Assembly (NCBI RefSeq): GCF_000315625.1
Contig: NW_005434631.1
Location: 62,001 to 126,000 of the forward strand
DNA length: 64,000 nt
Origin: Guillardia theta CCMP2712
Taxonomy: Eukaryota; Protista; Cryptophyta
Direction of reading: 5' to 3'
Below the pieces are notes generated by a model. That model did not search any database. It worked only from the letters and a program-made list of their open reading frames with translations, and was not told where the DNA came from. The position numbers and the translations under genes are program-made. Shown piece by piece: positions 13,531-53,976 of the stretch (position 1 is the stretch's first letter; every line of letters starts with the position of its first letter).

Positions 13531-14110
13531 ACATTATCCACCATCGAACTTGGTTTGGTGTCAAAAAAAAAGTTTGCGTTTCTTGAGGGCATTTCTTTTG
13601 AAATGAAAGGTGCGCCCTGCTCCTATTCTACTGAACGCTATATCCGTGTCACTGTCACTGTCTCTGTCTCTGTCTCTGTTCCCTTCTCTTTTCTCAGATG
13701 TTCTCTCTTTCTCTCTTTCTCGTTCTTCCTCGTTCCATCCATTGTCCCCTCTTCATTCGCCTCGTTTCGAGCTTCCATGGCGCCATGGCCCCATCCCTCG
13801 CTATCTCTCGCACTACTCTTAGAGTATTTATATTAAAGACCTTAAAGACCAAAATGCACAATATGGGTTTTTTTGAATTTTAAAAATGCAAAAACTGGAG
13901 TTGTATGCATTTCCTTACAATTAAAATTAAACCAAAAAGATAAAATGTATTATTGCTAAATAATACATATATTCTATATAATTTAACAATAAATCTATTA
14001 CCAGAATGGTAATACCTTACCTTCACACTGAATTTAGATGTGCGTCATCTATAGCCACCCTTACAACCCTCTCAAACATATACTTTGCATAATTTGTAAC
14101 ATACAATACA

Positions 14111-14189
14111 TATACTATACTATATACTATATACTATACTATATACTATATACTATACTATATATTACTATATATTACTATATACTATA
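14111..14189. repeat. (TATAC)n/(TATATAC)n AT-rich microsatellite
   Basis: Seen directly. Confidence 0.85.
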
Positions 14190-14210
14190 AAATATCATAT
14201 ATTTTATAAT

Positions 14211-14630
14211 AAATCTATTACCAGAATGATAAGGCCTCCGCGCCACATTTAGCAAGGGGTCGCCAACATGCGACAGCATGTCTCAGGCCATAACCCTGCG
14301 CGTAGCGCATGGGTGTCCCTATAATGCCCTCATATTGGCCAATTAAAACATTTAGGGACAAATATGCAGAAATTCCTGTTATTTGCATATTTCAGTTACA
14401 ACCCAACACACACTGCTGCCAATAATCCTAGAGACTATATTTCTAGAACCATCTCAAATAACATAATATTACTATAATATATCCTATATTATTTACAATA
14501 AAATCTATTACCAGAATGATAAGGCCATTGCACTGCCCTTGTGCAAAGGGTCGCCAACATGCGACAGCATGTCTCAGGCCATAACCCTGCGCGTAGCGCA
14601 TGGGTGTCCCTATAATGCCCTCATATTGGC
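14211..14630. repeat. Two direct copies of a ~130-bp structured element (14211-14339, 14501-14630)
   Basis: Identical 26-bp head AAATCTATTACCAGAATGATAAGGCC, a variable 20-21 bp segment, then an identical 83-bp tail with hairpins ACATGC-gaca-GCATGT and CCC-TGCGC-gta-GCGCA-t-GGG. Confidence 0.9.
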
Positions 14631-14780
14631 ATCACCCTATCTCATCTCCATCTCAATGGCACCCAATCAAGACCATCACAATAATCTTCATCTGTGTTAT
14701 AAAAATAAAAGCATAGAAACTATAAAGAACCCTCAAAGCATGCAACGCATTGTTTAATATATATACTTCCCTCCAATGAT

Positions 14781-16997
14781 CTATCTTTCATACTGCAACA
14801 AACACTCCCTCTCCACTCTTCTTTCATTCCACTCATCGTAAAACAAATATATCACTTCTGACAACTCTTTTGGTGGATCTATCGTATATCTCAAAATATA
14901 ATCCTTCAATATGCTCTGTCTTTTATGGTCTGTTATATCAACCTCTCTGTTGTTCTTAATGAACCTGTCTGGATTGTATCTTATCCATATCACTGGCATG
15001 CCTCCAAATGAATTCACTATGTTCACCATTCTTGCTTGCTCACATTCACATGGATATGACTTGTGTTGAAACTCATCCACCTCTAATATCACAATATGGG
15101 TCGCATGCTCAAATACAAAGTCTGGCCTCTCCAACCCACAGTTGTCATTATTGATCCTATTCAATGATAAATTATGGTATTTGTAGGATATCCCATTTGC
15201 ATCTAGGAAGTTCTTTATCGCTAACTCCTTCGATTTGATATATCTCTTGTTGTTCTCATCACAATAATAGCATAGATTACTTTGGTCCAAAATATTCAAT
15301 AAACCACACCTCTTACAAGGCCTCTCTATAAAGTTTATTGAATCGGCTCTCTGGTGAGCCTCACAATACAACTGCATGGTCCCATTCGGATCTCCAAATA
15401 ATGCTCTCTCATTGCATTCTAAACATCTCTTAGTAGGGTTCTTTATCATGTTCTCTACTTTATGCCGCTCACAATGGGTCCTTGATTTGTAACCATACTT
15501 TGCGTCTGCAAGACAGCCCTCTAACACACAGATCTTGCGATATACATTTATCATACCCTCCTCTTTGTGTTTTTTACAGTATAAGCCCCTCGTAAATCCC
15601 TCATCATTGAAACACGGGTGTTTCTTGCATCCATCATAATGGCAGGCCTTATATATCACATTTATCATGCCATCCTCTTTGTGCTCGGCACAGTATAAGC
15701 CTGTAGTTTCACCCTCATTGTTGTAACGTGGGGTTTTACTGCATCCATTAAACACACAGGTCTTCTTGTTTATCATATCTATCATCCCCTCCTCTCTGTG
15801 CTCTGCACAGTATAACCCTTTTGTTTGTCCCTCGCGATTGTAGCATGGGATTTTACTGCATCCATCAAATCTACATTTCTTGTTTTTTACATTTATCATG
15901 CCCTTCTCCTTGTGCTTTGCACAGTATAAGCTTTTAGTGTGTCCCTTGTAGTTGCACGATGACATTCTATTACAACCCTTATATTTGCATATATTGTTTT
16001 TCACACCTATCATGCCCTCCTTTTTGTGCTCACTACAGTATAAGCATTTGGTTTCGCCCTCGTAGTTATAACTTGGCCATTTGTTACAACCCTCGAACAC
16101 ACATCTCTTGGTTTTTACATTTACCATGCCCTCTTTTTTGTGCTCAAAACAATACAATCCTTTGGTTTCTCCCTCATCATTGTAGTTTGGTGTTTTACTG
16201 CATCCATCGAATAAACATGGCTTCTTTATCACATTTATCATACCCTCCTCTTTGTGCTTGCCACAGTATAAACCCTTAGTTTCTCCCTCATGGTTGCAGT
16301 ATGGTATCTTAATGCATCCATTGAATGCACACCTTATATTCAGTTTCACATTCATCATACCCTCCTTTTTGTGCTTACGACAGTATAAGCGTCTTGGTTC
16401 CCCCTCGTAGTTATAATATGGCTGTCTCTTGCAACCCTCAAATACACACTGCATCTTTATTGTCACATTTATCATGCCCTCCTCTTTGTGCTTCTTACAG
16501 TACATGCCTTTGCTTTGTCCCTCATGATTGAAGCATGGCATCTTGTCGCATCCATCATGATTACATATCTTGTTTCCTACGTTTTTCATTCCCTCCTCTT
16601 TGCGATCCTCACAGCATATGACTTTGGTATGTCCATCACGATCACAGGTCTTGCTCTCAACATTTATCATGTCCTCCTCTTTGCGATCCTCACAGCATAT
16701 GACTTTGGTATGTCCATCACGATCACAGGTCTTGCTCTCAACATTTATCATGTCCTCCTCTTTGCGATCCTCACAGCATATGACTTTGGTACGTCCCTCA
16801 TGGTTTAAACGTTGTGTCTTCTTGCTTCCAACTTTTATCATGCCCTCCTCTTTGTGATCCTCACAGCATATGCCTTTGGTGCGTCCCTTATAGTTGAAGC
16901 ATGGTGTCTTTTCGCATCCATCGGATATACAAATCCTTAATAAATATATCTCACCTGACTTACACACCGGACCATACCTTGCCGTTATTAATTTCAT
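14781..16997 (-). CDS. EsV-1-7 cysteine-rich repeat protein with C-terminal PD-(D/E)xK-like nuclease domain
   Basis: More than 10 repeats of C..xGCxKxPxYNxEGETKGLYCxxHKxEGMINV, then a Zn-finger-like part and ERPDFVF...IVILEVDEFQHKSY...WIRYNPD, a restriction-endonuclease-like fold common in NCLDV proteins. Confidence 0.85.
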   Translation of the reverse strand: MKLITARYGPVCKSGEIYLLRICISDGCEKTPCFNYKGRTKGICCEDHKEEGMIKVGSKKTQRLNHEGRTKVICCEDRKEEDMINVESKTCDRDGHTKVICCEDRKEEDMINVESKTCDRDGHTKVICCEDRKEEGMKNVGNKICNHDGCDKMPCFNHEGQSKGMYCKKHKEEGMINVTIKMQCVFEGCKRQPYYNYEGEPRRLYCRKHKKEGMMNVKLNIRCAFNGCIKIPYCNHEGETKGLYCGKHKEEGMINVIKKPCLFDGCSKTPNYNDEGETKGLYCFEHKKEGMVNVKTKRCVFEGCNKWPSYNYEGETKCLYCSEHKKEGMIGVKNNICKYKGCNRMSSCNYKGHTKSLYCAKHKEKGMINVKNKKCRFDGCSKIPCYNREGQTKGLYCAEHREEGMIDMINKKTCVFNGCSKTPRYNNEGETTGLYCAEHKEDGMINVIYKACHYDGCKKHPCFNDEGFTRGLYCKKHKEEGMINVYRKICVLEGCLADAKYGYKSRTHCERHKVENMIKNPTKRCLECNERALFGDPNGTMQLYCEAHQRADSINFIERPCKRCGLLNILDQSNLCYYCDENNKRYIKSKELAIKNFLDANGISYKYHNLSLNRINNDNCGLERPDFVFEHATHIVILEVDEFQHKSYPCECEQARMVNIVNSFGGMPVIWIRYNPDRFIKNNREVDITDHKRQSILKDYILRYTIDPPKELSEVIYLFYDEWNERRVERECLLQYER

Positions 16998-17124
16998 TGC
17001 TTCTGATATTCTTTAGTGTCGTTTAAACCTTTATATAATATAACATCTCATTGTCTTTATATAGTTGTCTATCATCCTAAAAACAAATTTAAGCGCTATA
17101 TTCATATATCTTATCATATACCCA

Positions 17125-17523
17125 ATGGATCATATCGTTAACCCTGCTATGACACCCGATGAACTGAAAGCACAACAACGTAAAGAGTACCTCCGCAATT
17201 ATCAACGCAAATATGCACAGACCCATAAAACTGAGGCCAAAAGAGAATATCAAAAACAATATCAAAAGGCTTATCAAAAAACTTATCAGGCCAAACATCA
17301 TACCGCCCTACAAAGATATCATAATATGTCTCCTGAACAAAAACAACAATTGAATGAATACAACAAAGAACGCATCCAACAATTCACTCCTGAAAAAATG
17401 GAACAATTCCGTAAATATCACAATCAAGCTAGTCTCAAATGGTATCATCTCAATAAAGACGATATTAATCGCAAACGACGCGAACAATATCTGCAAAAGA
17501 AAAACAATGCTCCACCTTCATGA
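17125..17523 (+). CDS. Small Tyr/Gln/Lys-rich helical protein, paralog family member 1
   Basis: ATG at 17125. Motifs EYLRNYQR and SLKWYHLNKDDINRKRREQY are shared with ORFs at 27282, 30505 and 31138. Confidence 0.75.
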   Translation: MDHIVNPAMTPDELKAQQRKEYLRNYQRKYAQTHKTEAKREYQKQYQKAYQKTYQAKHHTALQRYHNMSPEQKQQLNEYNKERIQQFTPEKMEQFRKYHNQASLKWYHLNKDDINRKRREQYLQKKNNAPPS

Positions 17524-17938
17524 TTTGTTTTTATCATACACACCTACATCTATCCCCTCATTCAATACACACGTTATGTATACACAGTTTACACTGCATA
17601 CATCTATCCTCACATTTAATATCTACATTTCCCCCTCTTCGAATTACAAAAACTACTCCCTCTCTGCAAAATATTCCTTAACAAAAATTTCACAGCACAC
17701 AAAAATTATTCACCCTCAACCATCCTCACCCCTCCCCCTGTAATTAAATCTATACACCGTCAACCCATCCGCCCCTACATACTCACCATCCCTCATTATC
17801 AAACTCATGCTATCCTCCAATGCCTTCAACGCCTCCACATCCACATTGCTCGATCCCTTCTTCATCTCTAATGTCATCCTACACAAACCCCTCCTTACAT
17901 TACATTTTATTTTCTATCTCCTACGCACCCCACCCACG

Positions 17939-18600
17939 NNNNNNNNNNNNNNNNNNNNNNNNNNNNNNNNNNNNNNNNNNNNNNNNNNNNNNNNNNNNNN
18001 NNNNNNNNNNNNNNNNNNNNNNNNNNNNNNNNNNNNNNNNNNNNNNNNNNNNNNNNNNNNNNNNNNNNNNNNNNNNNNNNNNNNNNNNNNNNNNNNNNNN
18101 NNNNNNNNNNNNNNNNNNNNNNNNNNNNNNNNNNNNNNNNNNNNNNNNNNNNNNNNNNNNNNNNNNNNNNNNNNNNNNNNNNNNNNNNNNNNNNNNNNNN
18201 NNNNNNNNNNNNNNNNNNNNNNNNNNNNNNNNNNNNNNNNNNNNNNNNNNNNNNNNNNNNNNNNNNNNNNNNNNNNNNNNNNNNNNNNNNNNNNNNNNNN
18301 NNNNNNNNNNNNNNNNNNNNNNNNNNNNNNNNNNNNNNNNNNNNNNNNNNNNNNNNNNNNNNNNNNNNNNNNNNNNNNNNNNNNNNNNNNNNNNNNNNNN
18401 NNNNNNNNNNNNNNNNNNNNNNNNNNNNNNNNNNNNNNNNNNNNNNNNNNNNNNNNNNNNNNNNNNNNNNNNNNNNNNNNNNNNNNNNNNNNNNNNNNNN
18501 NNNNNNNNNNNNNNNNNNNNNNNNNNNNNNNNNNNNNNNNNNNNNNNNNNNNNNNNNNNNNNNNNNNNNNNNNNNNNNNNNNNNNNNNNNNNNNNNNNNN
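17939..18600. other. Assembly gap (N run)
   Basis: Run of Ns; ORFs spanning it are artefacts. Confidence 1.
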
Positions 18601-18772
18601 CCCCTACACTTATCCTTGACACATCCAACTCACTCACACTCAACATACCTTATCAGACTACTCTACCCCTTACATCCCTTACTCATTTTTATACCCACAT
18701 CTTCCCTCTAATTCGGACAAAACCCCCCGGCTAAGTCAATTAACTCTCGGACAAATCTTGGAGGATAGTAAA

Positions 18773-19436
18773 TCAACTCTCATGACTAAAGGCGTGGTTA
18801 CACTCCCTCTTATAAAACGGTTCTCTCCTCATCACCTCACCCTCCCTCGCTCTCCTCCCTACATGCACACGGAATATATTCAACGGGATCCTCTCCCTCC
18901 TCCTACATCTACTCCATCTCCCCCAATTCACCCTTATGTCCACCCTATACCTACCCATGTCCACCCTCAACAAATTCAACCATATGTAGATATCACGCAT
19001 ATATAAATACACCGGTATCGTCCTCCTAAATGTCTCATCGTAGTCCTCATCAAATTCTGTATACCATCCTGAATACATATCCTCATCCTCATACATCCTG
19101 AAAAATACCTCCTTCAGATCATACAGTCTTATCAAATCCTCCCTCGCCCTCTCCCTCCGTCATCCCCCTCCTCCTAAACACCCCATTGCTCTCTAATATC
19201 CTCAATGGTATGTCTATCAAAAGTCTGTTCTTCTTCTGCTCCCTCTTCTTCATGAAATAGTAACTAAACCCATACACCTCCTCCTCCAACTTTACCACCT
19301 TCCTCTCTATCTCGTCTATCCATGTCTCTAGGTATCCCCATATCAACTCCTGCGCACAATCCGGTAAATCATTCAGATCTATCATCCCTAAACTTTTCCT
19401 AAACAGTTTTGTTATATATTCGTATTCCCTTCTCAC
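18773..19436 (-). CDS. Hypothetical protein(s) with N-terminal F-box-like motif; possibly one frameshifted gene
   Basis: ORF 19119-19436 contains LNDLPDCAQELIWGYL. ORF 18773-19135 overlaps it in another frame and has no ATG near its start. Confidence 0.45.
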
Positions 19437-19504
19437 TTATATATCCTTACACCATTGTCTCACTCTAAAACATTTAAAGATAATAAGCCATATCTTACTA
19501 ACAC

Positions 19505-20328
19505 ATGGCACTTATCATTGATGTTGAAACCATTGGCCTACCTATGCGTGGAGGTCTCCCATATGGGCAGTTCCCTTCACATGAAAAACTTACTATGTAT
19601 GACGGTGCCCGCGTTGTACAAGTTAGCATGATGCTCTGTAATGAACATTTTGAAGAAATTGAACTTAAGGATTTCATCGTAAAAGCAGATGGGTTCTCTA
19701 TCGATAATTCTCAATTTCATGGTATCACTAACCAAATCTCTGCCACTCAAGGCATACCATTCTCAGAAGTTGCTGATGTACTCGCTTCATACCTCAATCA
19801 AGTTTCACATGTTGTTGCGCATAACGCCAATTTCGATCTTTCCATTATTAACAGTGAATTGTATCGCTTAGGCATGCACTCTATCATCGCTCAGCTCCAA
19901 GCAAAACACATCCTGTGCACCATGAAATATACTAAGATGCTTGTAAAAGCTCGGAATAGTTACGGCATCAAAGATCCTTCTCTCGCAGAACTTTATACCT
20001 TCGTCTTCAAAAAAATATCCAAAACGCTCACAATTCAAAATATGATGTCATCAATCTTCACAGTATTGTTAAATCTATGCATGATTCTAATCTACTCAAT
20101 CTTCATCAGCATATCACATATACTCCTGCTCCACAATGTGTGTCTGAATTGTCAAATGATGAACAACAAGATACTCCCGTGCCATCTGATCCTCCCGAAA
20201 TTGACCTCTCTAAATTAACCCTAACTCAACTTCGTGGTCAATGCAAGGCTAAGGGCATCAAAGGGTATACTTCCCTCAACAAAAACGCACTCATCGAAAA
20301 ACTTAACATGTCTTCCATTCTCGCATAA
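19505..20328 (+). pseudogene. DEDDh 3'-5' exonuclease (DnaQ/epsilon-like) with C-terminal Rho-N/HeH module, split by a 1-nt frameshift
   Basis: Motif I IIDVETIG and motif II AHNANFD are in frame. Adding one A to the A7 run at 20009-20015 restores NIQNAHNSKYDV (motif III) and runs into ORF 20077-20328, ending LSKLTLTQLRGQCKAKGIKGYTSLNKNALIEKL. Confidence 0.8.
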
Positions 20329-20839
20329 AAATTATATTAATAACATTATTTTTGTACAAATACCTGTGAATATGATCATCTCTCACTTGGCAAATTGTTC
20401 ATGTTATGTTCCCCACAAAAACTATATTTCTCATTCTTGCTTTTATTTTTGGCTTTCTATCTTATGCTCCATATTGATACTTTTATATAAATCACTCATC
20501 GTAATTTAAATTAATCCTTCCCTTAGTCAAGATGCTATTGATGCTTATATTATTGATGTATTGGTACGATTAAACAATGAAGCCAAAGATATAAATATTC
20601 TACCTCAATAATATGCTCAAAGAGGTATTGCTATAGAAAATATTTTGTTTAAAGTTGCAAATGATTTTGGCACACAATATATGATACATATTTTTCAAAA
20701 ACTTGTTATAAATTAGGCTACTAGTACACACTTGGACCTTTGAGCTCTTCTTTAATACTTAAACTTTCTTCTCTTGGTTTTAAAGTTACAAAAGTTCATA
20801 AGATCTTGAAGCACAATTTCTAAGTGTCATCTACGTTTG

Positions 20840-21652
20840 TCAAATATATTCTAATGTTCCTGTTTTCAATTCTATCAATTTTATAATGTCCTCATACAAT
20901 TCCTCTGGTATCCTTATGTATCGATCATGCTCATCTTTCACATACGGATATGAAGGTGCCAATTTTATATTATTTGAATTTATCACTATTTCTTCTTTTA
21001 TATCATCCACATCACTTATATCTGTAGATTTTAAAGAGTTGAATACCTTTATAGTGTCCATTTTCTGTTGTGTAGACAGTTGTTGGATCTTAGTCATGAA
21101 TTCCGTCACATTTATTGAACTGGGCAATTTCGTTAGTTCAACAGCCACTTCTAAAGATATTTTTGAAGGACCACTCACATCTAATGAACGCAATACCTCC
21201 TCCGGTAAATCTTTTATTTTTATATATTTCTGTAATGTCTTCTTTGATATATGAATCGCATTTACTACTCTCTCTATATCTCCTTCATACACCTCATATA
21301 ATTTTGAATATGCTCTCACTTTATCATTTGTTGTCATCTGATTCCTCTGCACATTCTCTACTAAACTTATCTCCTCCGCTTTTTGATCTGATATATTCAA
21401 TACATGACAACTTATCGATTCTTTATTTAGAAGTTTCATTGCTAAATACCTTCGTTGACCTGCAATTATTTCATATTTATTACCATCTATCTTTTTCACA
21501 GTTATAGGATTTATCAAACCATTGTTCTTTATATCATTAGCTAAGTCCTCTATACCTGTCTCATCTTCCTCTGAAGTCAATGTCTTTCTCACATTCAAAG
21601 TTGAAAGGATCAGGTTCTTTATATCTATATCTAGGTAATTCATTATTATCAC
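20840..21652 (-). CDS. ParB/Srx-domain protein
   Basis: IEDLANDIKNNGLINPITV...YEIIAGQRRYLA...ISLVENVQR: ParB N-terminal domain with the GxRR motif, followed by a helical/HTH-like region. Confidence 0.88.
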   Translation of the reverse strand: MIIMNYLDIDIKNLILSTLNVRKTLTSEEDETGIEDLANDIKNNGLINPITVKKIDGNKYEIIAGQRRYLAMKLLNKESISCHVLNISDQKAEEISLVENVQRNQMTTNDKVRAYSKLYEVYEGDIERVVNAIHISKKTLQKYIKIKDLPEEVLRSLDVSGPSKISLEVAVELTKLPSSINVTEFMTKIQQLSTQQKMDTIKVFNSLKSTDISDVDDIKEEIVINSNNIKLAPSYPYVKDEHDRYIRIPEELYEDIIKLIELKTGTLEYI

Positions 21653-21879
21653 TAATTAATATGCTTTCGTTTTAAGTAATCTTTATCCCATTTCGCACCC
21701 AAAACGTTTCACTTCATTGTTCTCTTCAAATGGCACATATATTCTCTCTCCATACTTTATTACAAGTCTGTTTGCTTTACCTTTAAATCTCTTCACGATC
21801 CATATCAATTAAACATCAACATCATTGCTACCATTCATTATAATCCATTCTGCCCTCCATATCATTATATCCCTCTCTT

Positions 21880-44719: not shown

Positions 44720-44771
44720 AAACTAGCAACACCTCAAGTACAATAATTATTCCCTAAAATAAAGGCAGGAT

Positions 44772-47141
44772 ATGGATTTTTATTTAAAGAGCCTATTGAA
44801 ACCATTTAATTATGACAAATTCAAGGACAATCTGAGAAAGGATTTATTTCCAAATGATCTTCCATTATACTTTACCGAAGCGATCAATATGAACGATGAA
44901 TTGTTCTTAAATATCATCAAATATGTATGTCAAGAGATAAATGATCTCCATGATGTGCATTATAAAAAAGAGCTGAAGTTGATATACAAATTCTTCTTGT
45001 GCTTCTTTTTGGTAAATATCAATGAATTTAAAGGATTGTTAAAGAAGGGAGAAATTGAGTATCTGAGCATTAGTGTACAAGAGATATTAACAATAAATCC
45101 CGATTTTGATAAGACGTGCAAATTGCCATATGAAACGAATACATTTGATAAAAAAAGCATTATCCATCCAGAACCATGGTATCTATCTGGAATAGATGAG
45201 GTAAAACACAATACGGCTGTAGCATTGATCCAAAAATTGATTAGGCATTTCTCATTCAATACCAACAATGTCAAGAAACTCATAGTCCAATATGGAGATG
45301 TGATGCACAAAACAGGATACAACACTAAAACCGTTACCAATATCAGAAACAAGCTTGACTTTGTTATAGGACTGTGTGACAAGAGAGATGGAATAATGCT
45401 GACAAGATACCTTGCTGCGTATACCGAAATATACATGGAGGGGATCAAAATAAACAAGAGGAAGAATGATTTAAAGAAATTGTTACAGGGCCCAGCTCCA
45501 ATAGATTTTAGGGCTGTGTTTAGATTATACAACCGTATAAAGAAATTGCAGCAAGAGATTTTTGATATATATGAAGAGAACGATGATCTGAATATGGATC
45601 CAGAAGAAGACAGGAAGATATCGAGAACATTGGATGCATTGTTGTATTCAGATGAATTAAAAGCTTTTTTAAAATCACACAAAGATGTCAATATTGAATT
45701 GGATGATGAGGAGCATATAAGGCTTCTTAGATCCTTGACAGAGAGCAGGAAATCATCATCCTCCAGATCATCGAGAAGAAATTCTTCCAATGAGAGATAC
45801 AGCTGGATGGACAACCTCAAATCTTCGTCATCCTCACCATCCGCCATATTCAGCATGCAATCTAAGCTGTCGAGGCTTGTGAGCAGTGCATACAAGAAGG
45901 AGAGCAGCAACAATGCAAGGTTCTCGAAGGCATTCTTTAAGGTGCTCAAGGAGGCCATGCTCCTAAGGCAGAATGCTCTATCTAAGAAGGGGAAGAATAG
46001 GACTGTCACATTCTTTCAGACAAACACACATCGTGTGGATGATGCAATACCTGGAATTCATGAACAAAAGTATGTAGAATCTATACAGAAACTAGAGGTG
46101 ATGCTGAATGATAAGAATGAACCACCAATGTTCTTGAGGTTTTACTTCCCCGATCTATATCAGATGGTTCTACAGGATCCAACAAAGACTGTATATGAGA
46201 ATGAGAACAAGAGAGAATTCCTCCTGATTCAAAAGAGGATTATAGATGAGTTGGATGAGAGAGACAAGCTTGTGTTGAAGGCTTGGACCTATAATGGGAA
46301 CAATGCCATCAATAGATTGTTGACATACCTGTTTGATACAAAATGCATCAAGATGTTTAAATTGGAACTGAAGCAAGAAGACATAGATGGTGCCATAGCC
46401 TATTTCTGCAATATAAAGATATTGAAAAGGCTTGGATACTTTGAGGGAATGGATGATCCAATAGAGGCCTTGAAAGCAAACAACTACAGCCAACTGCAAG
46501 AGATCATGACATCATACATATCTGATCTGTACAGGATAGCAGATGTTGTAAAGAGCAGAACACTACAGGTATTTGGAGAGGATGCAATAGAGAGAGCAAA
46601 TATATATGTTTTCAGAGGACAGACAGACAAGAACAAATGTCAAAAGAAAGATTATGAGTGCATCCTTTCAACATCACTAAATTTTTATAAGGCATTGTTC
46701 TTTCTAGATACAGCAAAACCAGAACCAAACAGAGAGGGGACCATAAATGGCAATATGTACATATACAGATTGACCAAGGACATGCCATTCATATATATAA
46801 TGCCCATAAGCATTTATCCATCCGAGCAGGAGATTTTATTGCTCCCAAAGGACAAGGATAAATTCTTAAACAAGTTGAAAACACCTATGATAAAACCAAG
46901 CTATAAATCATTATCAGCATCTTCCAGTTCAGATAGCGCAATGGAAAACATGCTCATGAATAGTATAAAAGAGAAAGAAGACATCATAAGAAATAGAAAT
47001 ATACCATTGTTAAGATGCATTGTGCATGAACATTATGATAACAATGCAATGAGGACCATTGAAACAGCAAATTATAAATTTCAGGATAACATGAATATCA
47101 GGTTGAGCATTTGCTGGCACAATTCGAACAGTTTTCCATAA
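44772..47141 (+). CDS. Large protein with C-terminal VIP2/Alt-like mono-ADP-ribosyltransferase domain
   Basis: LKAWTYNGNNAINRLL (cf. YT...INxxL), YVFRGQ (R), ILSTSLN (STS), SEQEILL (ExE). Confidence 0.72.
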   Translation: MDFYLKSLLKPFNYDKFKDNLRKDLFPNDLPLYFTEAINMNDELFLNIIKYVCQEINDLHDVHYKKELKLIYKFFLCFFLVNINEFKGLLKKGEIEYLSISVQEILTINPDFDKTCKLPYETNTFDKKSIIHPEPWYLSGIDEVKHNTAVALIQKLIRHFSFNTNNVKKLIVQYGDVMHKTGYNTKTVTNIRNKLDFVIGLCDKRDGIMLTRYLAAYTEIYMEGIKINKRKNDLKKLLQGPAPIDFRAVFRLYNRIKKLQQEIFDIYEENDDLNMDPEEDRKISRTLDALLYSDELKAFLKSHKDVNIELDDEEHIRLLRSLTESRKSSSSRSSRRNSSNERYSWMDNLKSSSSSPSAIFSMQSKLSRLVSSAYKKESSNNARFSKAFFKVLKEAMLLRQNALSKKGKNRTVTFFQTNTHRVDDAIPGIHEQKYVESIQKLEVMLNDKNEPPMFLRFYFPDLYQMVLQDPTKTVYENENKREFLLIQKRIIDELDERDKLVLKAWTYNGNNAINRLLTYLFDTKCIKMFKLELKQEDIDGAIAYFCNIKILKRLGYFEGMDDPIEALKANNYSQLQEIMTSYISDLYRIADVVKSRTLQVFGEDAIERANIYVFRGQTDKNKCQKKDYECILSTSLNFYKALFFLDTAKPEPNREGTINGNMYIYRLTKDMPFIYIMPISIYPSEQEILLLPKDKDKFLNKLKTPMIKPSYKSLSASSSSDSAMENMLMNSIKEKEDIIRNRNIPLLRCIVHEHYDNNAMRTIETANYKFQDNMNIRLSICWHNSNSFP

Positions 47142-47361
47142 ATTTGTGAGAAATACAATTGATCAGCCTCAGAAGATATGTAGTTTATAGTCTGTACATA
47201 ACGAGCGTTGCACAGATATATTGTGTTGCTGTTCTCGCCAAATCCACCGAAAATATCTCCCATTATTCTAAAAGTGTAGAATATATGCAATAGATTTTTG
47301 ATCAAACATGCATAAAGATATATATGAAATGACATAGATTGATCCATATTTTATTGATTTT

Positions 47362-48093
47362 TCAATAACAGACTTTACAATAATACCTTGTACTATCATA
47401 TTCATCTTCTTTCAAACAAAATATACAAAATAACCTATCACAGCCATAACAATAATGCTTGGGATCGTCATAGTCAAATAGAAATCTACAACTGTGGCAT
47501 GCCGGTCTCGCTTCTACATAGCGCGTGAAGATATGTTCTACAAGGTCTTCTGGAAACAACCTACAATCCTTGAGAGCTCTCTCAAATGATATCATTGCAT
47601 CATTGTACATATCCCATCGTGTTCCATAGTACCATGTGCAATGAGAAGAACAGAGTGGATACTCACAACACGTATCGCATAGCCTAGCAACGCAATCTTT
47701 CTCAAGATAATCCTCTCCACATGCACACTTGTTCTTATGCTGGATACACTCGTTGTCATTGCAACAAGCAATGCACAGCCTGTGCTTGCATCTCTCATCG
47801 GACATCTTTCCACAAGAGCATATGCTTAGATTGAGATGGATTGGACATGCTCTCTTCTTACAACAACTCTTGCAACAACCCGATATGCAACCATCATTGT
47901 ATCTATATATAGCACATTGAGAGCATGTGTTTGGCAACCCCTTGTATATAGATTGCACTCTCTTTAGCTTTCTTCGACATGGCAGGACCACCTCTGAGTT
48001 GCTATGCACAACACATGCCATATCTTTACAACACATCCTACAACTCAATGTGAAGCACATATAATTGGTTTTGTTGCATTCGCATCTATACAT
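47362..48093 (-). CDS. Cysteine-rich repeat protein (CxC...CxxCC...CxxH) with Zn-finger-like C-terminus
   Basis: Four repeats such as CSCGKMSDERCKHRLCIACCNDNECIQH; LFPEDLVEHIF is F-box-like. Confidence 0.65.
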   Translation of the reverse strand: MYRCECNKTNYMCFTLSCRMCCKDMACVVHSNSEVVLPCRRKLKRVQSIYKGLPNTCSQCAIYRYNDGCISGCCKSCCKKRACPIHLNLSICSCGKMSDERCKHRLCIACCNDNECIQHKNKCACGEDYLEKDCVARLCDTCCEYPLCSSHCTWYYGTRWDMYNDAMISFERALKDCRLFPEDLVEHIFTRYVEARPACHSCRFLFDYDDPKHYCYGCDRLFCIFCLKEDEYDSTRYYCKVCY

Positions 48094-48320
48094 CTATGTT
48101 AGGTTTTACTGTGAAGGCTGGGAGTGGGTCAGTGAAAAATGGCATCAATTATTATTATGGTTCATCTCTTTATGTGCCAATGAATGAATGGATGTGATAT
48201 CTATGTCAGGTTAAGGCGTTGTTAAAAAATGCTTCTAATAGATACAAGTCTATTTGAGATAAAACTATCAGCTCAGGATGTAAAAATGATAACATAAAAT
48301 TGAAAGGAAACAACAAAGCA

Positions 48321-49400
48321 ATGCTGTCGTTTGAGGAGAGGATAAGGAGGTATGTCAAGAAGAGCAAGAACAAGACCATCAAGAAAGATACATTGGATTT
48401 CATATCTGAAATATTGAAGAGATTTCTGGATAGATTGATTGACAGGAGCTTGCAGATTATGGAAGAGTGCAGAAGAAAATCATTCAAGGGACGGGTTATC
48501 TGTAATGGGACTGTATACATGATCCCAACATTCCTAATAGAGTTTGGTGTATCTCAGCATACCTGTGATGTAACAGCATCCTATGAGCGCATGTTGGAAA
48601 AGGGACTTACAGAACTTGAGGCACTGAAGAGGGCAAGAGGGATGGCATTCAATGTTGACATGTACAAGGAAATAATAGAGAGCAAAGCCAAGAATAATAT
48701 CAGAGTGAAGATGGATGCCTACATTGTTCTTGATGCTACAATGAAGTATGCTATAAACACGCTGTTCGATGAGATACAGAGTGGATGCAGCAGATCCGAT
48801 GTGAGCGATGCCATCATCAGAGAGATGCTCTTGAGATACATCTTGGGCCCATTCATAGATCTAAAGCCAACACCATACAAGAGAACAAGAATAGTGAGTG
48901 AGTATGACATATTGGATGATAAGAGCCAAGATCAGCTGATGAAGAATAATCACCATGATATGATTAGATTGGGCAGAGGGACCCATGCAATGATAAAAGA
49001 GAATGTTGTGGCATACATGGATGAGGTCATGAGAGCAGTATTGGATGTGAGCGAGGGGAAAGAGGTCCTGGGTGTAGAGGATTGCATATCCGGGATCAAT
49101 CAGAAGAACATACGCATAGAGATGGTAAATGATATGAGAATTGTTATAGAGAATGCAAAGAAGCACAAATATGGTTATACTCCAGAATCATATGAGGAAT
49201 TGAAGTCATTTACAGATGAGATCCTGAAGACATATGGATGTGAGGTCATATTGGATGAGGAGGCAAAATGGTTGATTTATTGTATCTACAAGGAGTATCT
49301 GTTCAGATTGTTTGAAGCCATAACGGATATAGTGTTGATGGAGAATTTGGATGTTGCAAGGAGAAAAGATGTGATGTTTGTCATAGAATGCCAAAAATAA
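48321..49400 (+). CDS. Divergent single-chain histone quadruplet H2B-H2A-H4-H3
   Basis: Four consecutive histone-fold-like segments alignable by eye to H2B, H2A, H4 and H3 (details in findings). ATG at 48321. Confidence 0.72.
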   Translation: MLSFEERIRRYVKKSKNKTIKKDTLDFISEILKRFLDRLIDRSLQIMEECRRKSFKGRVICNGTVYMIPTFLIEFGVSQHTCDVTASYERMLEKGLTELEALKRARGMAFNVDMYKEIIESKAKNNIRVKMDAYIVLDATMKYAINTLFDEIQSGCSRSDVSDAIIREMLLRYILGPFIDLKPTPYKRTRIVSEYDILDDKSQDQLMKNNHHDMIRLGRGTHAMIKENVVAYMDEVMRAVLDVSEGKEVLGVEDCISGINQKNIRIEMVNDMRIVIENAKKHKYGYTPESYEELKSFTDEILKTYGCEVILDEEAKWLIYCIYKEYLFRLFEAITDIVLMENLDVARRKDVMFVIECQK

Positions 49401-49523
49401 ATAAATATGCATATATATCAAAGATATTTTTTATATTTTCATAATGTTTTGCAGCAAGCAATACATGGTGTTCATCATATCAAAAATGATATAAACATAT
49501 ATGGTTATTAGGCATAAAGAAAT

Positions 49524-49991
49524 ATGGCACAAAATAGCGCAACGTATTATGAAAAATTCATGGATATGTCTAATCAGATATATGAACTAAAGGACAAGCT
49601 ATCTGATTTAGAATACAAGAACCTGAATGAAACATTGTCTGAACTAAGAACCTGTCAAAAGAATGCTCAATTGCATATCTTCAGATATTATCATCAATAC
49701 TTTGTTCCTTACACACAATACAATGATGATGGATGTCTTGAATTGATAAACAACCTAAAAATAGATGAGGAGTGTATTGTATGTACAATCGATGAAGAGA
49801 TACTTAGACATCCATTGAATAGATTGATGCATAAATTGCATGTCTTCAAGCAGAGTGCTAAGATACCACATCTGGAATATCTACATTCTGATAAGAACAT
49901 TGAATTTATTGATACCATCCAAAAAGGTAAATCAAGCGATATGGTGGAATATGTTAACATCATCCCTATTTCACTTGAACCATTGAGATAA
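49524..49991 (+). CDS. Hypothetical protein
   Basis: ATG ORF with the upstream AAAAATGA motif. Confidence 0.6.
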   Translation: MAQNSATYYEKFMDMSNQIYELKDKLSDLEYKNLNETLSELRTCQKNAQLHIFRYYHQYFVPYTQYNDDGCLELINNLKIDEECIVCTIDEEILRHPLNRLMHKLHVFKQSAKIPHLEYLHSDKNIEFIDTIQKGKSSDMVEYVNIIPISLEPLR

Positions 49992-50030
49992 AAATGATCA
50001 TCAATATTTCTTAGAGATAGACCAAACAAG

Positions 50031-50390
50031 ATGAATGCCATTACAGATATAATCGGTACAATCTATCTCAAGTTTATACAGAATTGCGTGCCTGTTGCTA
50101 AGTTGCTCGCTATACTGTTCAATCTTCCGACATGGGTGTATTACCTATTCCTTGGATTGTTCGTGTTATCATTGTGCACACCACCTAATGATAACAAGAA
50201 GACAACAAGACACCATAAATCAACCAAGATTGATCCTAAGGCAGACACAGAAGATAATCTATCCATGGAACACGAGATCAACCAGCTTAAACAACACATC
50301 GATAATCTTAATCGGGACATGTATAGGACCAAGAGATACGTATTAAAGCTTTACGAGAAATCTATGCATATGAGCATCGTTGATTACTAG
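50031..50390 (+). CDS. Hypothetical membrane protein with coiled coil
   Basis: Hydrophobic N-terminal half, then LSMEHEINQLKQHIDNLNRD. Confidence 0.6.
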   Translation: MNAITDIIGTIYLKFIQNCVPVAKLLAILFNLPTWVYYLFLGLFVLSLCTPPNDNKKTTRHHKSTKIDPKADTEDNLSMEHEINQLKQHIDNLNRDMYRTKRYVLKLYEKSMHMSIVDY

Positions 50391-50456
50391 ATCTGTTTAG
50401 ATATATAAAAATACATGTTGAAAATGAATTTCTGTTTTTTTATTTCAATTACTCAT

Positions 50457-50888
50457 ATGGAAGAGTTTATTGAAATATTTGATGCAATCAACCTAGAATC
50501 AACCATAATAAACCCTGTAAAGGACTTGATATTTGATCAATACATCAAGCTATGCGAGAAAGATCTAATAGACACCCATTTTGATTGTGAGTTGTGTGAG
50601 AGCAGGTGTCCTAAAGAGACAAGGTTCCAAAACTTTGATATATGCAATGATTGTGTTGCTGAATATGTTTATTGGAGATGTTCTCAATGTGATTATGAAT
50701 TCAAGTTGGATGATATTGCTTGTATATTGTATGTGAATGAGAAGAACATATATCATAACATGGCATATTGCCATGAATGTGCAGATGACCTACAATTCTT
50801 CATATGCGATCATTGCCATATGCGTTTGCATGTATGTAAAGAGTTTGATGACAATTGTTGTGATCACTGTTATTTTCAGAGAGAATAG
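50457..50888 (+). CDS. CxxC-rich Zn-binding protein
   Basis: Six CxxC pairs (CELC, CNDC, CSQC, CHEC, CDHC twice). Confidence 0.6.
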   Translation: MEEFIEIFDAINLESTIINPVKDLIFDQYIKLCEKDLIDTHFDCELCESRCPKETRFQNFDICNDCVAEYVYWRCSQCDYEFKLDDIACILYVNEKNIYHNMAYCHECADDLQFFICDHCHMRLHVCKEFDDNCCDHCYFQRE

Positions 50889-51099
50889 ATTGTATATTCA
50901 TAACTTTACATATGCTTCAAGATCAACTTTTTTAGCTCTCTGTGCTCTAATGAATTTCATTGAATATAACATTATCCTGTATAAATCTTTTATCACACTA
51001 CCATATATATTTATGTATGTTGCATTTGCACAATTTTAAGCAAAAAATGAATTGGGTATCTCTTTTTATATCATGATTACGACACACGAACAGGCTTAA

Positions 51100-52641
51100 A
51101 TGTTGAGAAAACTTTTTCAAAGGAATACAAAAGAAGATAATAAGGTTTCGGTAAAGACAGAAGAAAACACAAAAGAAGATAATAAGGTTTCGATGAAGAC
51201 AGAAGGCAGTCAAAACGAGGCTGAACAGGTTATAAGACTAAAATACAATAAACTAAAAAGAAAGAGTTCTTCAAAACCTGAAACAAGAAAAGAGAAAATG
51301 CCTACAATCAAACACAATAACAGCTCAATGAAGAATGATAGATTGAAAGAAGAGGAGGAAGACTGGCATGTGGAAAAGAGAATCCGTGTGGCAAATCAGA
51401 AAAAGGAAACCGAATATCACAGAAAGATACATAAGATAAGAAATTCTCTTACAAGACAACAATTTGTAGAAGAAAACATTAGAAAATATTCTGTGAAGGC
51501 TATCCATAGAGAAGATGAAACAAGTGTTATTGTTGTAAAATCTAATCACACAGGCACCAAGCACAAAATCAAACTGTCTGATGGGATTGGAATTCCATCT
51601 ATCAGTCTCTCAAGGCTCTGCAAGATGGATAAGTCGGGTGTCTTTGATTGCTTGATCTGTAACAACAGCATGTCAAATCAACCCAATAAAACAAATGATG
51701 AGGTTCATCTTGTCATGGGTAAAGAGAACATCTCCTACTTTTCCAATGATGATGACGCTTCGCTTCATGTAGGCAACATTGTAAGATCTGTGGATCATCT
51801 TGAGAAGGATCGATTTGTCTTTGATAGCACATGTGGGATCGATATGACAAAGAGAATTGATGAGAGAGAGGTCCCTGTAAGCCTGCAAAACATCCTTCAA
51901 TATTGCAAACACTTTGTCAATAGCAATATTGCTCAACAGACCTTATCCTTCTCCGTGTATGAGTCCTATATGTCTGTCAAGAAAGAGTTCAAGAGCAGGA
52001 CTGAGAGGCATATCACATTCCCTATGATGTTCATTGATGTTAAAACAAATGATGATCAACAATTCAACTTCAAGGCCCTCTTATGGAAAAAGAAGAAGAA
52101 CTCACGATATCTTGGTGCCAAGGAGGGAAGCCTTGAGGTCATCAACATGCCCTCGTATCATGAACGCAATCCATGCCTATCTGCCTTCTACTTCCCATTG
52201 CCTATGTTCTCATTCTTCCTTTCAAGAGGATTTCTTATTGACTTTGTTTGGGAGGATGAATTGCCACCATATAAAGGACGTATATATAAGGAGGATCGTT
52301 ATGATGATGAGGAGATTGCATACAGCATCAAATCAATCCGAAATGTGGTATTTCATTCTCCTAGGAGCATCCTAGAGAAAGAAGCAATCATGGTCCTTGT
52401 TGATTGGGAGATCCCTGAACACAATGAGGGTGTCTTTTCAGAGGAACCCAATGATAAGTCATATCTTTCATGGATAAGCATCTCTAATCTTGTATCTTAT
52501 AACTGTCTTATGCAATATTTCAAATTTAGAGCTCCATTTATGAGAGATCCCATCAGCAAGAATGTTTATCCTAAGGATTTCACAGGGCTCATCAATCCAA
52601 CAACCACTGATGAGGAGGACTATCTTTCTAGGTTCAATTAG
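51100..52641 (+). CDS. Hypothetical protein with C-terminal chromodomain-like segment
   Basis: YSIKSI...VLVDW...SWISISNL..LMQYF resembles the chromo pattern YxVExI...YLVKW...TWEPxxNL...LIxxF. Confidence 0.5.
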   Translation: MLRKLFQRNTKEDNKVSVKTEENTKEDNKVSMKTEGSQNEAEQVIRLKYNKLKRKSSSKPETRKEKMPTIKHNNSSMKNDRLKEEEEDWHVEKRIRVANQKKETEYHRKIHKIRNSLTRQQFVEENIRKYSVKAIHREDETSVIVVKSNHTGTKHKIKLSDGIGIPSISLSRLCKMDKSGVFDCLICNNSMSNQPNKTNDEVHLVMGKENISYFSNDDDASLHVGNIVRSVDHLEKDRFVFDSTCGIDMTKRIDEREVPVSLQNILQYCKHFVNSNIAQQTLSFSVYESYMSVKKEFKSRTERHITFPMMFIDVKTNDDQQFNFKALLWKKKKNSRYLGAKEGSLEVINMPSYHERNPCLSAFYFPLPMFSFFLSRGFLIDFVWEDELPPYKGRIYKEDRYDDEEIAYSIKSIRNVVFHSPRSILEKEAIMVLVDWEIPEHNEGVFSEEPNDKSYLSWISISNLVSYNCLMQYFKFRAPFMRDPISKNVYPKDFTGLINPTTTDEEDYLSRFN

Positions 52642-53063
52642 TTCTTCCAATCACAACACAATTGATTATTTTTATATTTCTATCATCAATCAATACTATG
52701 GTTTGGCATGGTTTTATTGAATTATAAACGGAGTATCATTCAAGATGTTATCTGGTGCAGTTGTTCTTATTGCATCCTGAAAAATATTGTCATGTTTTGT
52801 GCCTGTTTCTGAACCTTTATCATTTGAAGTCTTTCACATACAATGGATCAATTAGATTTTTTATAAACATTTGTAGGATCATCTGATGTCTGCAATGGCA
52901 TTTCTCACTGTCGATATCCCATTTGCATATCTCTTTGTCCTTTTCACATGTCGATACTTCCTTGCCTTGATTTTATATATTGCATCATAAAAATGCAAGG
53001 TATAAAAAATTATAAACATGAAATGATCAATCATTAACCGCTGTTCCTAATACACTAAGGCAA

Positions 53064-53534
53064 ATGTCATCATATAATGTTGAATTAGATGAGATAGACC
53101 CAGGATTGTCACTTGATGATGGAATAGTGATACCAGTGGCAATACGGCCATCACTACGTTCTGGTCGATCATACTCAGATCTGTTTGCAGAGCTGGAACC
53201 GAACAATAAAAGGAGGAAAACAATTGGCAGTGGCTCTTTGAGCTCCTTTGAAGCTTTCATTAGACATCCAAGACCAGATGAACCAATTACAAAGCAAAAG
53301 ATTGCGAGGAAAGGACAGCAGATATGGAAGGACCTATATAAAAAGATGCAGAGAGAATTCAATGAAGCAGTATCCAATATTGAAACAACAACCAAGCAAC
53401 AGCTTATAAGAGACAATGTAAAATCAATCTTTCATAAAAACATGAAGAACAAGAACAGATGTATTTATATGTACCTAGAGATGTGCGAGATAAATGGATT
53501 GATAGACATTGTTAGAGATGATAGCAAGCCTTAG
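53064..53534 (+). CDS. Hypothetical protein, last ORF of the AT-rich block
   Basis: ATG ORF with NLS-like NKRRK. Confidence 0.55.
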   Translation: MSSYNVELDEIDPGLSLDDGIVIPVAIRPSLRSGRSYSDLFAELEPNNKRRKTIGSGSLSSFEAFIRHPRPDEPITKQKIARKGQQIWKDLYKKMQREFNEAVSNIETTTKQQLIRDNVKSIFHKNMKNKNRCIYMYLEMCEINGLIDIVRDDSKP

Positions 53535-53976
53535 ACCTTCCATACCCCTCCAAATCATGTTATATGAACCGGTATAATATAACCCCCACCCCCTCCATGG
53601 GACACTCACTCCTCAGTTCATGCCTTTCCGCAGATGCCGGCAGACCAAATCTAAAACTCATTTTATTATATTGAGTAAAAATACAGATAAAAGTTGTCAA
53701 CGCCGATCAATGGTCAATCAGCAAGTGATGGGCGAGGGCTGAAGATGGAGGGGGATGGAGTAGAAAACAATGCCGAGGAGGGGGAGATGAAGGGGAAGCG
53801 ATGGGGCAATGAGAAGATACCTCTGGAGATTGATGCGGCGACTTTGACTCTTGTGAGCAGGCGTTTTAACGGTTCCACCAGGCAAGGAAAGATTGCTGAT
53901 AACGAGTATCATCAAGAAGGACTCCGGGAAGTTCAATACGTCGCTGGTCCGGGTGATTGGCGGCAGGATTGGGAGC

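What the first reader, a model, noticed from the sequence alone, without database searches (positions are those of the whole stretch)
13830..53690. ~40-kb giant-virus-like insert with mostly intact ORFs but no capsid, PolB or integrase
Seen: a sharp compositional island of intronless ORFs up to 1203 aa, largely intact (one clear frameshift), between intron-rich host genes. It has replication/partition-type genes (two AEP-like proteins, UL9-like helicase, ParB, exonuclease) but no recognisable virion or RNA polymerase genes. Inference: either a recent fragment of a giant endogenous viral element, or a capsid-less plasmid-like replicon derived from one.
Basis: partly seen in the sequence, partly recalled or inferred. 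Interest (0 to 1): 0.7.

Follow-up and report, generated by a model that had tools for sequence, protein, structure and literature searches.

The report
Silent giant-virus relic splitting algal gene
About 33 kb of giant-virus-like genes with no recognisable capsid, polymerase or integrase sit almost silent in the chromosome of what is likely the alga Guillardia theta, where they appear to split a host gene and are themselves interrupted by a 6-kb piece of a roughly 18-copy repeat; this is likely the relic of a mimivirus-related virus, but it could be a compact capsid-less replicon.

Summary
The island is real (13826-53691; 36% GC against 50-53%) but composite. About 33 kb is virus-like. A 6.35-kb piece (37331-43682) lies at 11-19 times the depth, is transcribed and is cut from a longer repeat. 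Reads bridge the right junction at single-copy depth. The two host flanks join in frame across a 3-bp repeat. Reads show the exonuclease frameshift is an assembly error. The viral part encodes an AEP-UL9-like primase-helicase of a rare subfamily, ParB (63-65% to giant-virus contigs), EsV-1-7 repeats, and weakly matched HECT, ADP-ribosyltransferase and two histone-fold proteins. Six of 26 genes carry the published AaV early-promoter octamer, and a duplicated 15-bp-arm palindrome lies beside the helicase gene. Sister copies exist in the genome. No capsid, PolB, A32, RNA polymerase, integrase or terminal repeat was found. Best reading: silent relic of an Imitervirales-like virus (0.5). Rival: complete capsid-less satellite replicon (0.3). 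I found no description of it in the papers searched.

The parts
13777..13825 (+). Host gene 5' piece (ATG at 13777, short hydrophobic signal-peptide-like frame), ending in the 3-bp repeat AGT (13823-13825)
   Evidence: the signal peptide is judged by eye
13826..37330 (.). Viral part, left arm (36.4% GC; includes the N gap 17939-18600)
14252..14630 (.). Two 88-bp direct repeats (99% identical) near the left end, each holding the 9-mer that also starts the palindrome arms
   Evidence: (D20)
14781..16997 (-). 738-aa EsV-1-7 cysteine-rich repeat protein with a C-terminal PD-(D/E)xK-like motif set
   Evidence: Pfam PF19114 E 3e-144; 28-36% to 5 IMG/VR contigs, 3 of them GVMAG; motifs
17125..17523 (+). 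Small K/Q/R-rich helical protein, paralogue of 27282-27686, 30505-30921 and 31138-31422
   Evidence: 30-71% identity among the four
19505..20328 (+). DEDD exonuclease with C-terminal Rho_N-like domain; split in the assembly, continuous in the reads
20840..21643 (-). ParB-like protein, 267 aa
   Evidence: Pfam E 4e-18; TIGR00180 above cut-off; 63-65% to a 415-kb IMG/VR contig and two GVMAG contigs, next to an RNA polymerase subunit gene there
21915..21989 (.). Palindrome copy 1: perfect 15-bp arms, 45-bp spacer of 73% AT; candidate origin or binding site
   Evidence: DNA fold z -8.1; 0 arms of 15 bp or more in 12 simulations
22104..23078 (-). T5orf172 (GIY-YIG-like) protein between two 290-bp direct repeats; one X1 contig skips it
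   Evidence: joint 21848 to 23298
23357..23431 (.). Palindrome copy 2, about 140 bp past the stop of the primase-helicase gene
   Evidence: z -9.8
23573..27184 (-). 1203-aa AEP primase fused to a UL9-like SF2 helicase; 2-3 times depth with variant letters (sister copies)
28031..29677 (+). 548-aa CoiA_N plus DUF5710 protein
31747..33012 (-). 421-aa protein with an F-box-like start and WxxLSxNP repeats
   Evidence: Seen in the sequence; no Pfam hit; paralogue of the split gene
34137..34670 (+). 177-aa likely H2B-H2A histone doublet
   Evidence: The top 8 PDB hits are H2B-H2A fusion chains, best E 0.003; weaker with a 2-sequence profile, where RNA-polymerase chains rank first
34749..36704 (-). 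651-aa likely HECT E3 ligase
   Evidence: Pfam E 2.7e-4, below cut-off; DxGGxxR and AHTC motifs
36784..37330 (+). 5' half of a broken F-box/WxxLSxNP paralogue (premature stop at 37009-37011)
   Evidence: tblastn with the 421-aa paralogue, E 0.6, colinear
37331..43682 (.). Nested piece of a roughly 11-19-copy repeat; both ends cut through its own ORFs; left edge uncertain by about 15 bp
   Evidence: Depth and one shared alternative flank on each side
37451..39883 (-). 810-aa AEP-like orphan of the nested repeat; reads carry one more base behind 37520, so the frame likely runs on to the insertion edge
   Evidence: No homologue; Atlas leads to AEP/PriCT clusters, all under the 0.9 bar
40059..40447 (.). 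About six 52-bp tandem repeats upstream of the nested AEP gene, with a seventh copy at 40874-40938
40507..40851 (+). Highly transcribed 109-aa ORF with poly(A) behind 40849-40851
   Evidence: X20 depth 127-273; 28 and 173 poly(A) loose ends
41351..42121 (-). Ifi-6-16 family gene, host-like GC, transcribed, on 3 contigs
42606..43034 (+). 142-aa transcribed ORF of the nested repeat
43683..53691 (.). Viral part, right arm; single copy and nearly silent
43683..44719 (+). 3' half of the broken WxxLSxNP paralogue (the assembly differs from the X1 contig at 43844-43911)
44772..47141 (+). 789-aa protein with a likely R-S-E ADP-ribosyltransferase domain at its C-terminus
   Evidence: Pfam ADPrib_exo_Tox E 0.022; R614, STS 633, ExE 685-687; no PDB hit
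48321..49400 (+). 359-aa possible multi-histone-fold protein
   Evidence: Pfam Histone E 3e-4, below cut-off; N-half to an H2B-H2A.Z chimera at E 0.51; C-half unsupported
51100..52641 (+). 513-aa orphan, the only unassigned ORF large enough to be a divergent capsid or integrase
   Evidence: 2 homologues; no family, Atlas or PDB hit; model pLDDT 32
53692..54800 (+). Host gene 3' piece starting with AGT (53692-53694), in phase with the 5' piece, followed by RCC1 repeats

Best explanation
A 33-kb block of giant-virus-like genes lies in the host chromosome in one nearly silent copy, and it is likely a relic of an Imitervirales-like (mimivirus-related) virus that inserted into the likely first exon of a host RCC1-repeat gene. 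Shown: integration at the right end, single-copy depth, near-zero RNA, sister copies, and the nested repeat. Inferred steps: (1) viral DNA, either a sub-genomic piece or a whole genome later deleted internally, was joined at a staggered break, leaving a 3-bp repeat and no loss of host sequence; (2) its genes depend on a viral RNA polymerase (AAAAATGA promoters) that the block does not encode, so they are off; (3) related viruses entered this genome more than once, leaving sisters; (4) a 6.35-kb fragment of an unrelated, recently amplified repeat was later pasted into one viral gene. In the parent virus the AEP-UL9 protein would bind and open an origin, possibly the adjacent palindrome, and prime synthesis.
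For: Right junction: one X1 contig (depth 87.6, 0 other letters, 1 gap) runs from 43912 to 58000, and X21 depth is 6.2 in the right arm against 4.7 in host bins. RNA: mean 0.02 per strand over 44004-53341 against 4.3-7.8 on a host gene, and 0.26 or less in every bin of 18601-38600. Of 676 junction placements, 11 give a repeat of 3 bp or more and only one keeps both host frames open. ParB is 63-65% identical to giant-virus contigs and EsV-1-7 is 28-36%. The primase-helicase profile aligns over both domains with IMG/VR and GVMAG AEP-PriCT2-Herpes_ori_bp proteins (probability 99.5%). AAAAATGA is upstream of 6 of 26 genes, 0 antisense, shuffle mean 0.36, 0 of 2000 shuffles, and is the published AaV early promoter (PMC5917014). 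Paralogue arrays and ubiquitin or ART cargo are typical of large giant-virus genomes (general knowledge).
Against: No Nucleocytoviricota hallmark gene lies in 33 kb. The primase-helicase is not the canonical giant-virus one: four canonical proteins form a separate clade on a 3.63 branch, and the subfamily's motifs found 0 relatives among 129 candidate IMG/VR stretches. Its 7 metagenomic loci are 5-12 kb, and none of the 15 neighbours scanned had a Pfam hit above cut-off. Clean in-frame flanks fit a programmed insertion as well as repair capture. Extra depth centres on the primase-helicase, not on the cargo. The promoter motif was noticed by eye before it was tested.
Confidence: 0.5

Rival explanations
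1. The block is a complete, compact, capsid-less replicon, a large transpoviron-like satellite of giant viruses. It would replicate from the palindrome with its own primase-helicase, be transcribed by a co-infecting giant virus, and integrate into the host as a unit.
For: The primase-helicase gene, palindrome and ParB gene are adjacent, and one X1 contig joins 21848 to 23298, skipping the gene in between. The arm 9-mer occurs exactly 6 times in the window, all intergenic in the island: 4 in the arms and 2 in the left-end repeats. Sisters share the helicase region at 2-3 times depth, and an 81% sister protein sits on another scaffold. The subfamily was not found in IMG/VR. One member is fused to PolB in a single 2246-aa protein. 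Relatives' loci carry AAAAATGA or AAAATTGA upstream in 8 and 5 of 29 ORFs. Transpovirons carry giant-virus promoters and a helicase (PMC11788076).
Against: No terminal repeats and no integrase were found. There is no ParA. Unshared parts are at single-copy depth, so there is no episome in these runs. It is five times the size of known transpovirons. Wide-spacer inverted repeats are common in giant-virus intergenic DNA (L020, L025, L026, L030, L031), so the palindrome may be a MITE or a 3'-end hairpin; both copies lie 3' of a gene. The relatives' contigs are short, so the lack of hallmark genes beside them proves little. A 3-bp repeat can arise by chance.
Confidence: 0.3
2. The block is a fragment of a cryptophyte mirusvirus, or of another nucleus-replicating large DNA virus that lacks PolB and RNA polymerase.
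For: The G. theta assembly holds mirusvirus MCP, triplex and protease markers (PMC10827195). Histones are core mirusvirus genes and major lineages lack PolB and RNA polymerase (PMC12768974). Two histone-like ORFs and a herpes UL9-type helicase are present.
Against: No virion-module gene was recognised. The early promoter is of the Imitervirales type. The closest ParB is in contigs with a giant-virus RNA polymerase gene. The ORFs are intron-free, whereas the polymerase-less mirusvirus orders are intron-rich. Histone support is weak.
Confidence: 0.1
3. The island is a chimeric or mis-scaffolded join of separate viral pieces, with the N gap hiding a break.
For: The gap is not bridged and abuts a region at about 6 times depth. 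The assembly differs from reads at 37179-37244, at 43844-43911 and at several single bases. X1 may be the source of the assembly.
Against: The right junction is bridged. Single-copy contigs bridge both edges of the nested repeat (33431-37345 and 43653-58000). The two outer flanks fit as halves of one reading frame. Paralogues and the 9-mer occur on both sides of the gap.
Confidence: 0.06

Closest known systems
Giant endogenous viral elements and their relics (Punuivirus GEVE of Chlamydomonas, bioRxiv 2024.09.03.611062; Euglena GEVEs, PMC12455990)
   Same: Low-GC block of giant-virus-type genes in an algal chromosome, invaded by repeats, with related copies elsewhere in the genome
   Different: 33 kb rather than 86-617 kb; no hallmark gene; no TIR; a 3-bp repeat rather than a 6-bp TSD
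Giant-virus AEP-PriCT2-Herpes_ori_bp 'replication origin-binding protein' and herpes UL9
   Same: Colinear AEP plus SF2 helicase
   Different: Separate subfamily; PriCT_2 not detected and a Rho_N-like domain present instead; one member fused to PolB
Transpovirons (PMC11788076)
   Same: No capsid, a helicase, giant-virus early promoters
   Different: Transpovirons are about 7-kb episomes with TIRs; this block is 33 kb, integrated, without TIRs and with much cargo
Cryptophyte polinton-like viruses, including G. theta AEP-S3H elements and Rhodomonas Prim-S2H elements (PMC4642659, PMC12220804)
   Same: Size range 14-40 kb, cryptophyte host, primase-helicase in place of PolB
   Different: No MCP, A32 ATPase, tyrosine recombinase or rve integrase, and no TIR found; the nested AEP piece may derive from such an element (untested)
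Mirusviricota (PMC10827195, PMC12768974)
   Same: Histones, absence of PolB and RNA polymerase, markers reported in G. theta
   Different: No HK97 module recognised; intron-free genes; Imitervirales-type promoter

Membership tests
GEVE / Nucleocytoviricota | Hallmark genes (DJR MCP, PolB, A32, VLTF3, RNA polymerase) | tested here: not met
   0 of 35 island ORFs in Pfam at E<=0.05; 0 of 31 in PHROGs; 0 of 20 in NCBIfam. No GVOG library was available; the 513-aa orphan and the 662-N gap are unresolved.
GEVE / Nucleocytoviricota | Genes with close relatives in giant viruses | tested here: met
   ParB 63-65%, EsV-1-7 28-36%, AEP-UL9 profile match. Histone-like, HECT and nested AEP scans gave no locus.
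GEVE / Nucleocytoviricota | Integrated in host DNA with a composition contrast | tested here: met
GEVE / Nucleocytoviricota | Imitervirales-type early promoter | tested here: met
   6 of 26 upstream regions, 0 of 2000 shuffles; motif published in PMC5917014; chosen post hoc
Polinton-like virus / polinton | DJR MCP plus A32 ATPase | tested here: not met
Polinton-like virus / polinton | Terminal repeats and an rve integrase or tyrosine recombinase | tested here: not met
   No terminal repeat of 9 bp or more within 150 bp of the ends, none in the self-alignment; no integrase family hit
Transpoviron | About 7-kb linear episome with TIRs | tested here: not met
   33 kb, single-copy depth, no TIR
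Transpoviron | Helicase and giant-virus promoters, no capsid | tested here: met
Transpoviron | Replication and packaging with a helper giant virus | not testable with these tools
   Needs infection experiments
Mirusviricota | HK97 MCP, portal, triplex, terminase | tested here: inconclusive
   No Pfam or PHROG hit, but no mirusvirus HMMs were available and the model of the 513-aa ORF failed
Mirusviricota | Histone genes | tested here: inconclusive
   E 0.003 and 3e-4, both weak; the fold failed
AEP-UL9 origin-binding protein | SF2 motifs and UL9 similarity | tested here: met
   E 7e-17 to solved origin-binding proteins; motifs at 547, 632 and 850
AEP-UL9 origin-binding protein | AEP catalytic motifs | tested here: met
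   D83-x-D85, S155-Y-H157, D200; PrimPol hit at E 0.014
AEP-UL9 origin-binding protein | PriCT_2 domain | tested here: not met
   No hit in the window protein or in 11 relatives; present in 4 of 5 distant IMG/VR proteins
AEP-UL9 origin-binding protein | Sequence-specific origin binding | not testable with these tools
   Only a candidate palindrome

The most novel reading that the evidence does not exclude
A family of 30-40-kb capsid-less replicons exists in cryptophytes and aquatic metagenomes. They are defined by a distinct AEP-UL9 primase-helicase (sometimes fused to PolB) that acts on a herpes-oriS-like palindrome beside its gene. They carry histone doublets, a HECT ligase and an ADP-ribosyltransferase under giant-virus early promoters, insert cleanly into host genes, and wake only when a giant virus infects the cell. 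Virus catalogues miss them because they have no hallmark gene.
Probability: 0.25. Interest if true: 0.8.

Novelty: new variant of a known kind. Interest (0 to 1): 0.5.

Why it matters
As a relic, it records an undescribed Imitervirales-like virus of photosynthetic cryptophytes, where a recent survey found no convincing GEVEs (PMC12220804). It does so in a cultured model alga, with intact genes that marker-based screens miss and a host gene apparently knocked out. If it is a complete capsid-less replicon, it would be a new size class of giant-virus satellite with a testable UL9-type initiator and origin pair outside herpesviruses. The nested repeat, with an orphan AEP, 52-bp repeats and about 19 near-identical copies, is a separate, apparently recently amplified element.

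Tried and rejected
No whole genome was held, so sisters could not be mapped. No RNA holder was listed. The single-protein IMG/VR scan with the primase-helicase found 0 of 15 candidates. IMG/VR scans with the 359-aa, HECT and nested AEP proteins returned no locus (one search noted 2 matching stretches but 0 distinct loci). The GTDB scan found 0 of 114. Both AlphaFold models were unusable (pLDDT 33.5 and 31.8); Foldseek on the first gave nothing and the second was not searched. An H4-H3 reading of the C-half of the 359-aa protein and a chromodomain in the 513-aa protein were suggested by eye and not supported. A circular form of the nested piece was tested by looking for its right-hand loose end in the window: 0 matches. 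A second upstream motif (TTAAA-type) was not enriched. No tRNA or Rfam hit was found. The right-end hairpin and the 52-bp repeats did not fold better than shuffles. With one mismatch allowed, the arm 9-mer is not clearly enriched in the window (19 against 12.7 expected). An episomal viral part was rejected on depth. 'Two primases in one replicon' was rejected. Earlier-findings look-ups gave nothing relevant.


Full report
Observation. The island is real. GC falls from 50-53% to 36%, with change points at 13817 and 53692. A 662-N gap lies at 17939-18600. The viral part has 28 genes or gene pieces covering about 78% of 32,852 bases. It has 14 ORFs of 200 aa or more (one is an antisense shadow) against 0 in 30 simulations. 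The flanks are eukaryotic: TTC21, BTB, RCC1 repeats and dynein heavy chain.

Host. The best relative of the primase-helicase is an 81% identical 404-aa protein named Guillardia theta CCMP2712 GUITHDRAFT_133296, on a longer contig than the window's own (1,226,574 against 577,038 bases). The reads show variant sister copies in the same runs. I therefore infer that the host is G. theta; no call named the window's own record.

Integration. One X1 contig at single-copy depth crosses the right junction with no other letters. X1 may be the source of the assembly. X21, a raw ChIP library from another study, is even across the junction (6.2 against 4.7 per strand), though ChIP depth is not a clean copy measure. 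A host frame starting at 13777 and a host frame running from 53692 towards the RCC1 repeats are in phase across the repeat AGT. Of 676 placements tried, 11 give a repeat of 3 bp or more and one keeps both frames free of stops. This suggests insertion into a first exon without loss of host DNA, but a 3-bp match is weak by itself. X20 shows no plus-strand reads over 54009-55342, which fits a silent host gene but does not prove it. There are no terminal repeats.

The island is composite. The stretch 37331-43682 is at 19.0, 14.8 and 11.1 times single-copy depth in X1 and 18 times in X21. Other copies continue on each side with one shared different sequence, and both edges cut through ORFs, so this is an internal fragment of a longer repeat. 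It splits a viral F-box/WxxLSxNP gene (5' half E 0.6, 3' half E 2e-4). It holds the 810-aa AEP-like orphan (no homologue; Atlas leads under the 0.9 bar), 52-bp repeats and three transcribed genes, one with poly(A) at 40851. The copies are nearly identical: a 2,651-base contig at depth 1664 shows no other letters. In freshwater metagenome X8 it is about 97% identical and at about host depth (5-10 in most bins, against 5-11 for host bins), which suggests recent amplification in this strain; summed contig depth is a poor measure of copy number.

Integrity and expression. The exonuclease frameshift is an assembly error. The viral part is nearly silent in X20 (0.26 or less per bin), from about 6% of one run and one condition. 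Sister copies show as 2-3 times depth with variant letters over 23270-27271, up to 6 times over 18601-19934, and raised depth over 32608-33941. ParB, HECT and the right arm are single copy at 90% identity. X8 holds many diverged variants, for example about 92% over the 359-aa gene and summed depth up to 239.

Genes. The 1203-aa protein is an AEP fused to a UL9-like helicase. Only 11 relatives were found among 1.84 billion representatives: the G. theta sister, nine long metagenomic proteins on 4-12-kb contigs, and one fragment. One relative, P0007, continues into a complete PolB. The family aligns with giant-virus AEP-PriCT2-Herpes_ori_bp proteins, but four of those form a separate clade on a long branch. 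The tree is midpoint-rooted, half its inner branches are open, and L007 is unplaced (P0002, P0012 and the herpes-size loci were left out). The subfamily's motifs found no IMG/VR relative but 7 JGI metagenome loci among 261 candidates. These loci are 21-26% GC, three share a small basic protein with the window, and none of 15 neighbours scanned had a Pfam hit above cut-off. ParB and EsV-1-7 have clear giant-virus relatives. The HECT, ADP-ribosyltransferase and two histone-fold assignments rest on sub-threshold hits plus motifs. The 513-aa ORF remains unassigned.

Cis signals. AAAAATGA lies 23-57 bases upstream of 6 of 26 genes. I noticed it before testing it, and it matches the AaV early promoter consensus (PMC5917014). 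A palindrome with perfect 15-bp arms and a 45-bp AT-rich spacer occurs twice, as part of one duplication, between the helicase and ParB genes. The arm 9-mer recurs in two left-end repeats. Its layout and core recall herpes oriS, which is two UL9 boxes around an AT-rich spacer; that comparison is from memory, and of the UL9 papers I saw only the search listing. Similar wide-spacer inverted repeats are common in giant-virus intergenic DNA, so an origin role is only a candidate.

Mechanism and rivals. Most likely (0.5) this is a relic of an Imitervirales-like virus, captured or internally deleted, and silent for lack of viral RNA polymerase. A complete capsid-less satellite (0.3) is kept open by the helicase-palindrome-ParB cluster, the clean flanks, helicase-centred sisters and the PolB fusion. 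It is weakened by the lack of terminal repeats, integrase or episome. A mirusvirus fragment (0.1) and mis-scaffolding (0.06) remain.

Literature. Ten searches were run. I read passages only of PMC5294986 (G. theta listed with a VLTF3-column entry), PMC12747079, PMC12768974, PMC4642659, PMC10120064, PMC5294985, PMC5917014, PMC11788076, PMC12721341, PMC12455990, bioRxiv 2026.10.13.758929 and bioRxiv 2024.09.03.611062. For PMC12220804 I read passages and section 11. For PMC10827195 I read passages, part 2 of 5 and two supplement rows. For bioRxiv 2026.08.29.747986 I read part 1 of 4. None of what I saw describes this element. The supplementary tables of PMC12220804 and PMC5294986 (not opened), closed bioRxiv supplements and papers outside the library could list the locus.

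Verdict. A real, composite endogenous viral element; a new variant of a known kind; interest 0.5.

Noticed in passing
window 42141-42176 (variants at 42242 and 42570): A 36-bp motif with thousands of genome copies (X1 depth about 457,000 against 88) and diverse flanks, upstream of two divergent genes; possibly a promoter element or a MITE end.
   Followed up: no
window 37331-43682: The parent repeat (about 19 near-identical copies, orphan AEP, 52-bp iteron-like repeats, strongly transcribed cargo) could itself be an active element or an episome; its ends lie outside the window.
   Followed up: partly
protein P0007 (JGI/IMG contig, 12,122 bp): A single 2246-aa protein joining an AEP primase, a UL9-like helicase and a complete family-B polymerase.
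   Followed up: partly
window 37179-37244 and 43844-43911: The assembly differs from the single-copy X1 contigs about 100-200 bp outside each edge of the repeat; probably consensus taken from reads of other copies.
   Followed up: partly
window 43683-53691: CpG observed/expected is 0.37 in the right arm against 0.57 in the left arm and 0.72-0.76 in the host; cause unknown.
   Followed up: no
L025:7971-9911 and 12600-13568: The closest giant-virus ParB sits between an unassigned 647-aa gene and, two genes on, a DDE_3 transposase, so ParB may itself be mobile among giant viruses.
   Followed up: no
L025:17517, L026:12885 and 13115, L030:5969 and 13776: A shared inverted repeat (13-15-bp arms, 48-50-bp spacer) in several giant-virus contigs, MITE-like.
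   Followed up: no
L020:7897, 10115, 11269: Long inverted repeats (17-28-bp arms) downstream of the relative's primase-helicase gene, unlike the window's in sequence.
   Followed up: partly
window about 55300-56300, minus strand: A host DnaJ-like gene (HPD motif seen), probably the source of the X20 reads in this flank.
   Followed up: no
run X8: A freshwater metagenome holds the host flank at about 95-98% identity, although the inferred host is listed as marine.
   Followed up: no
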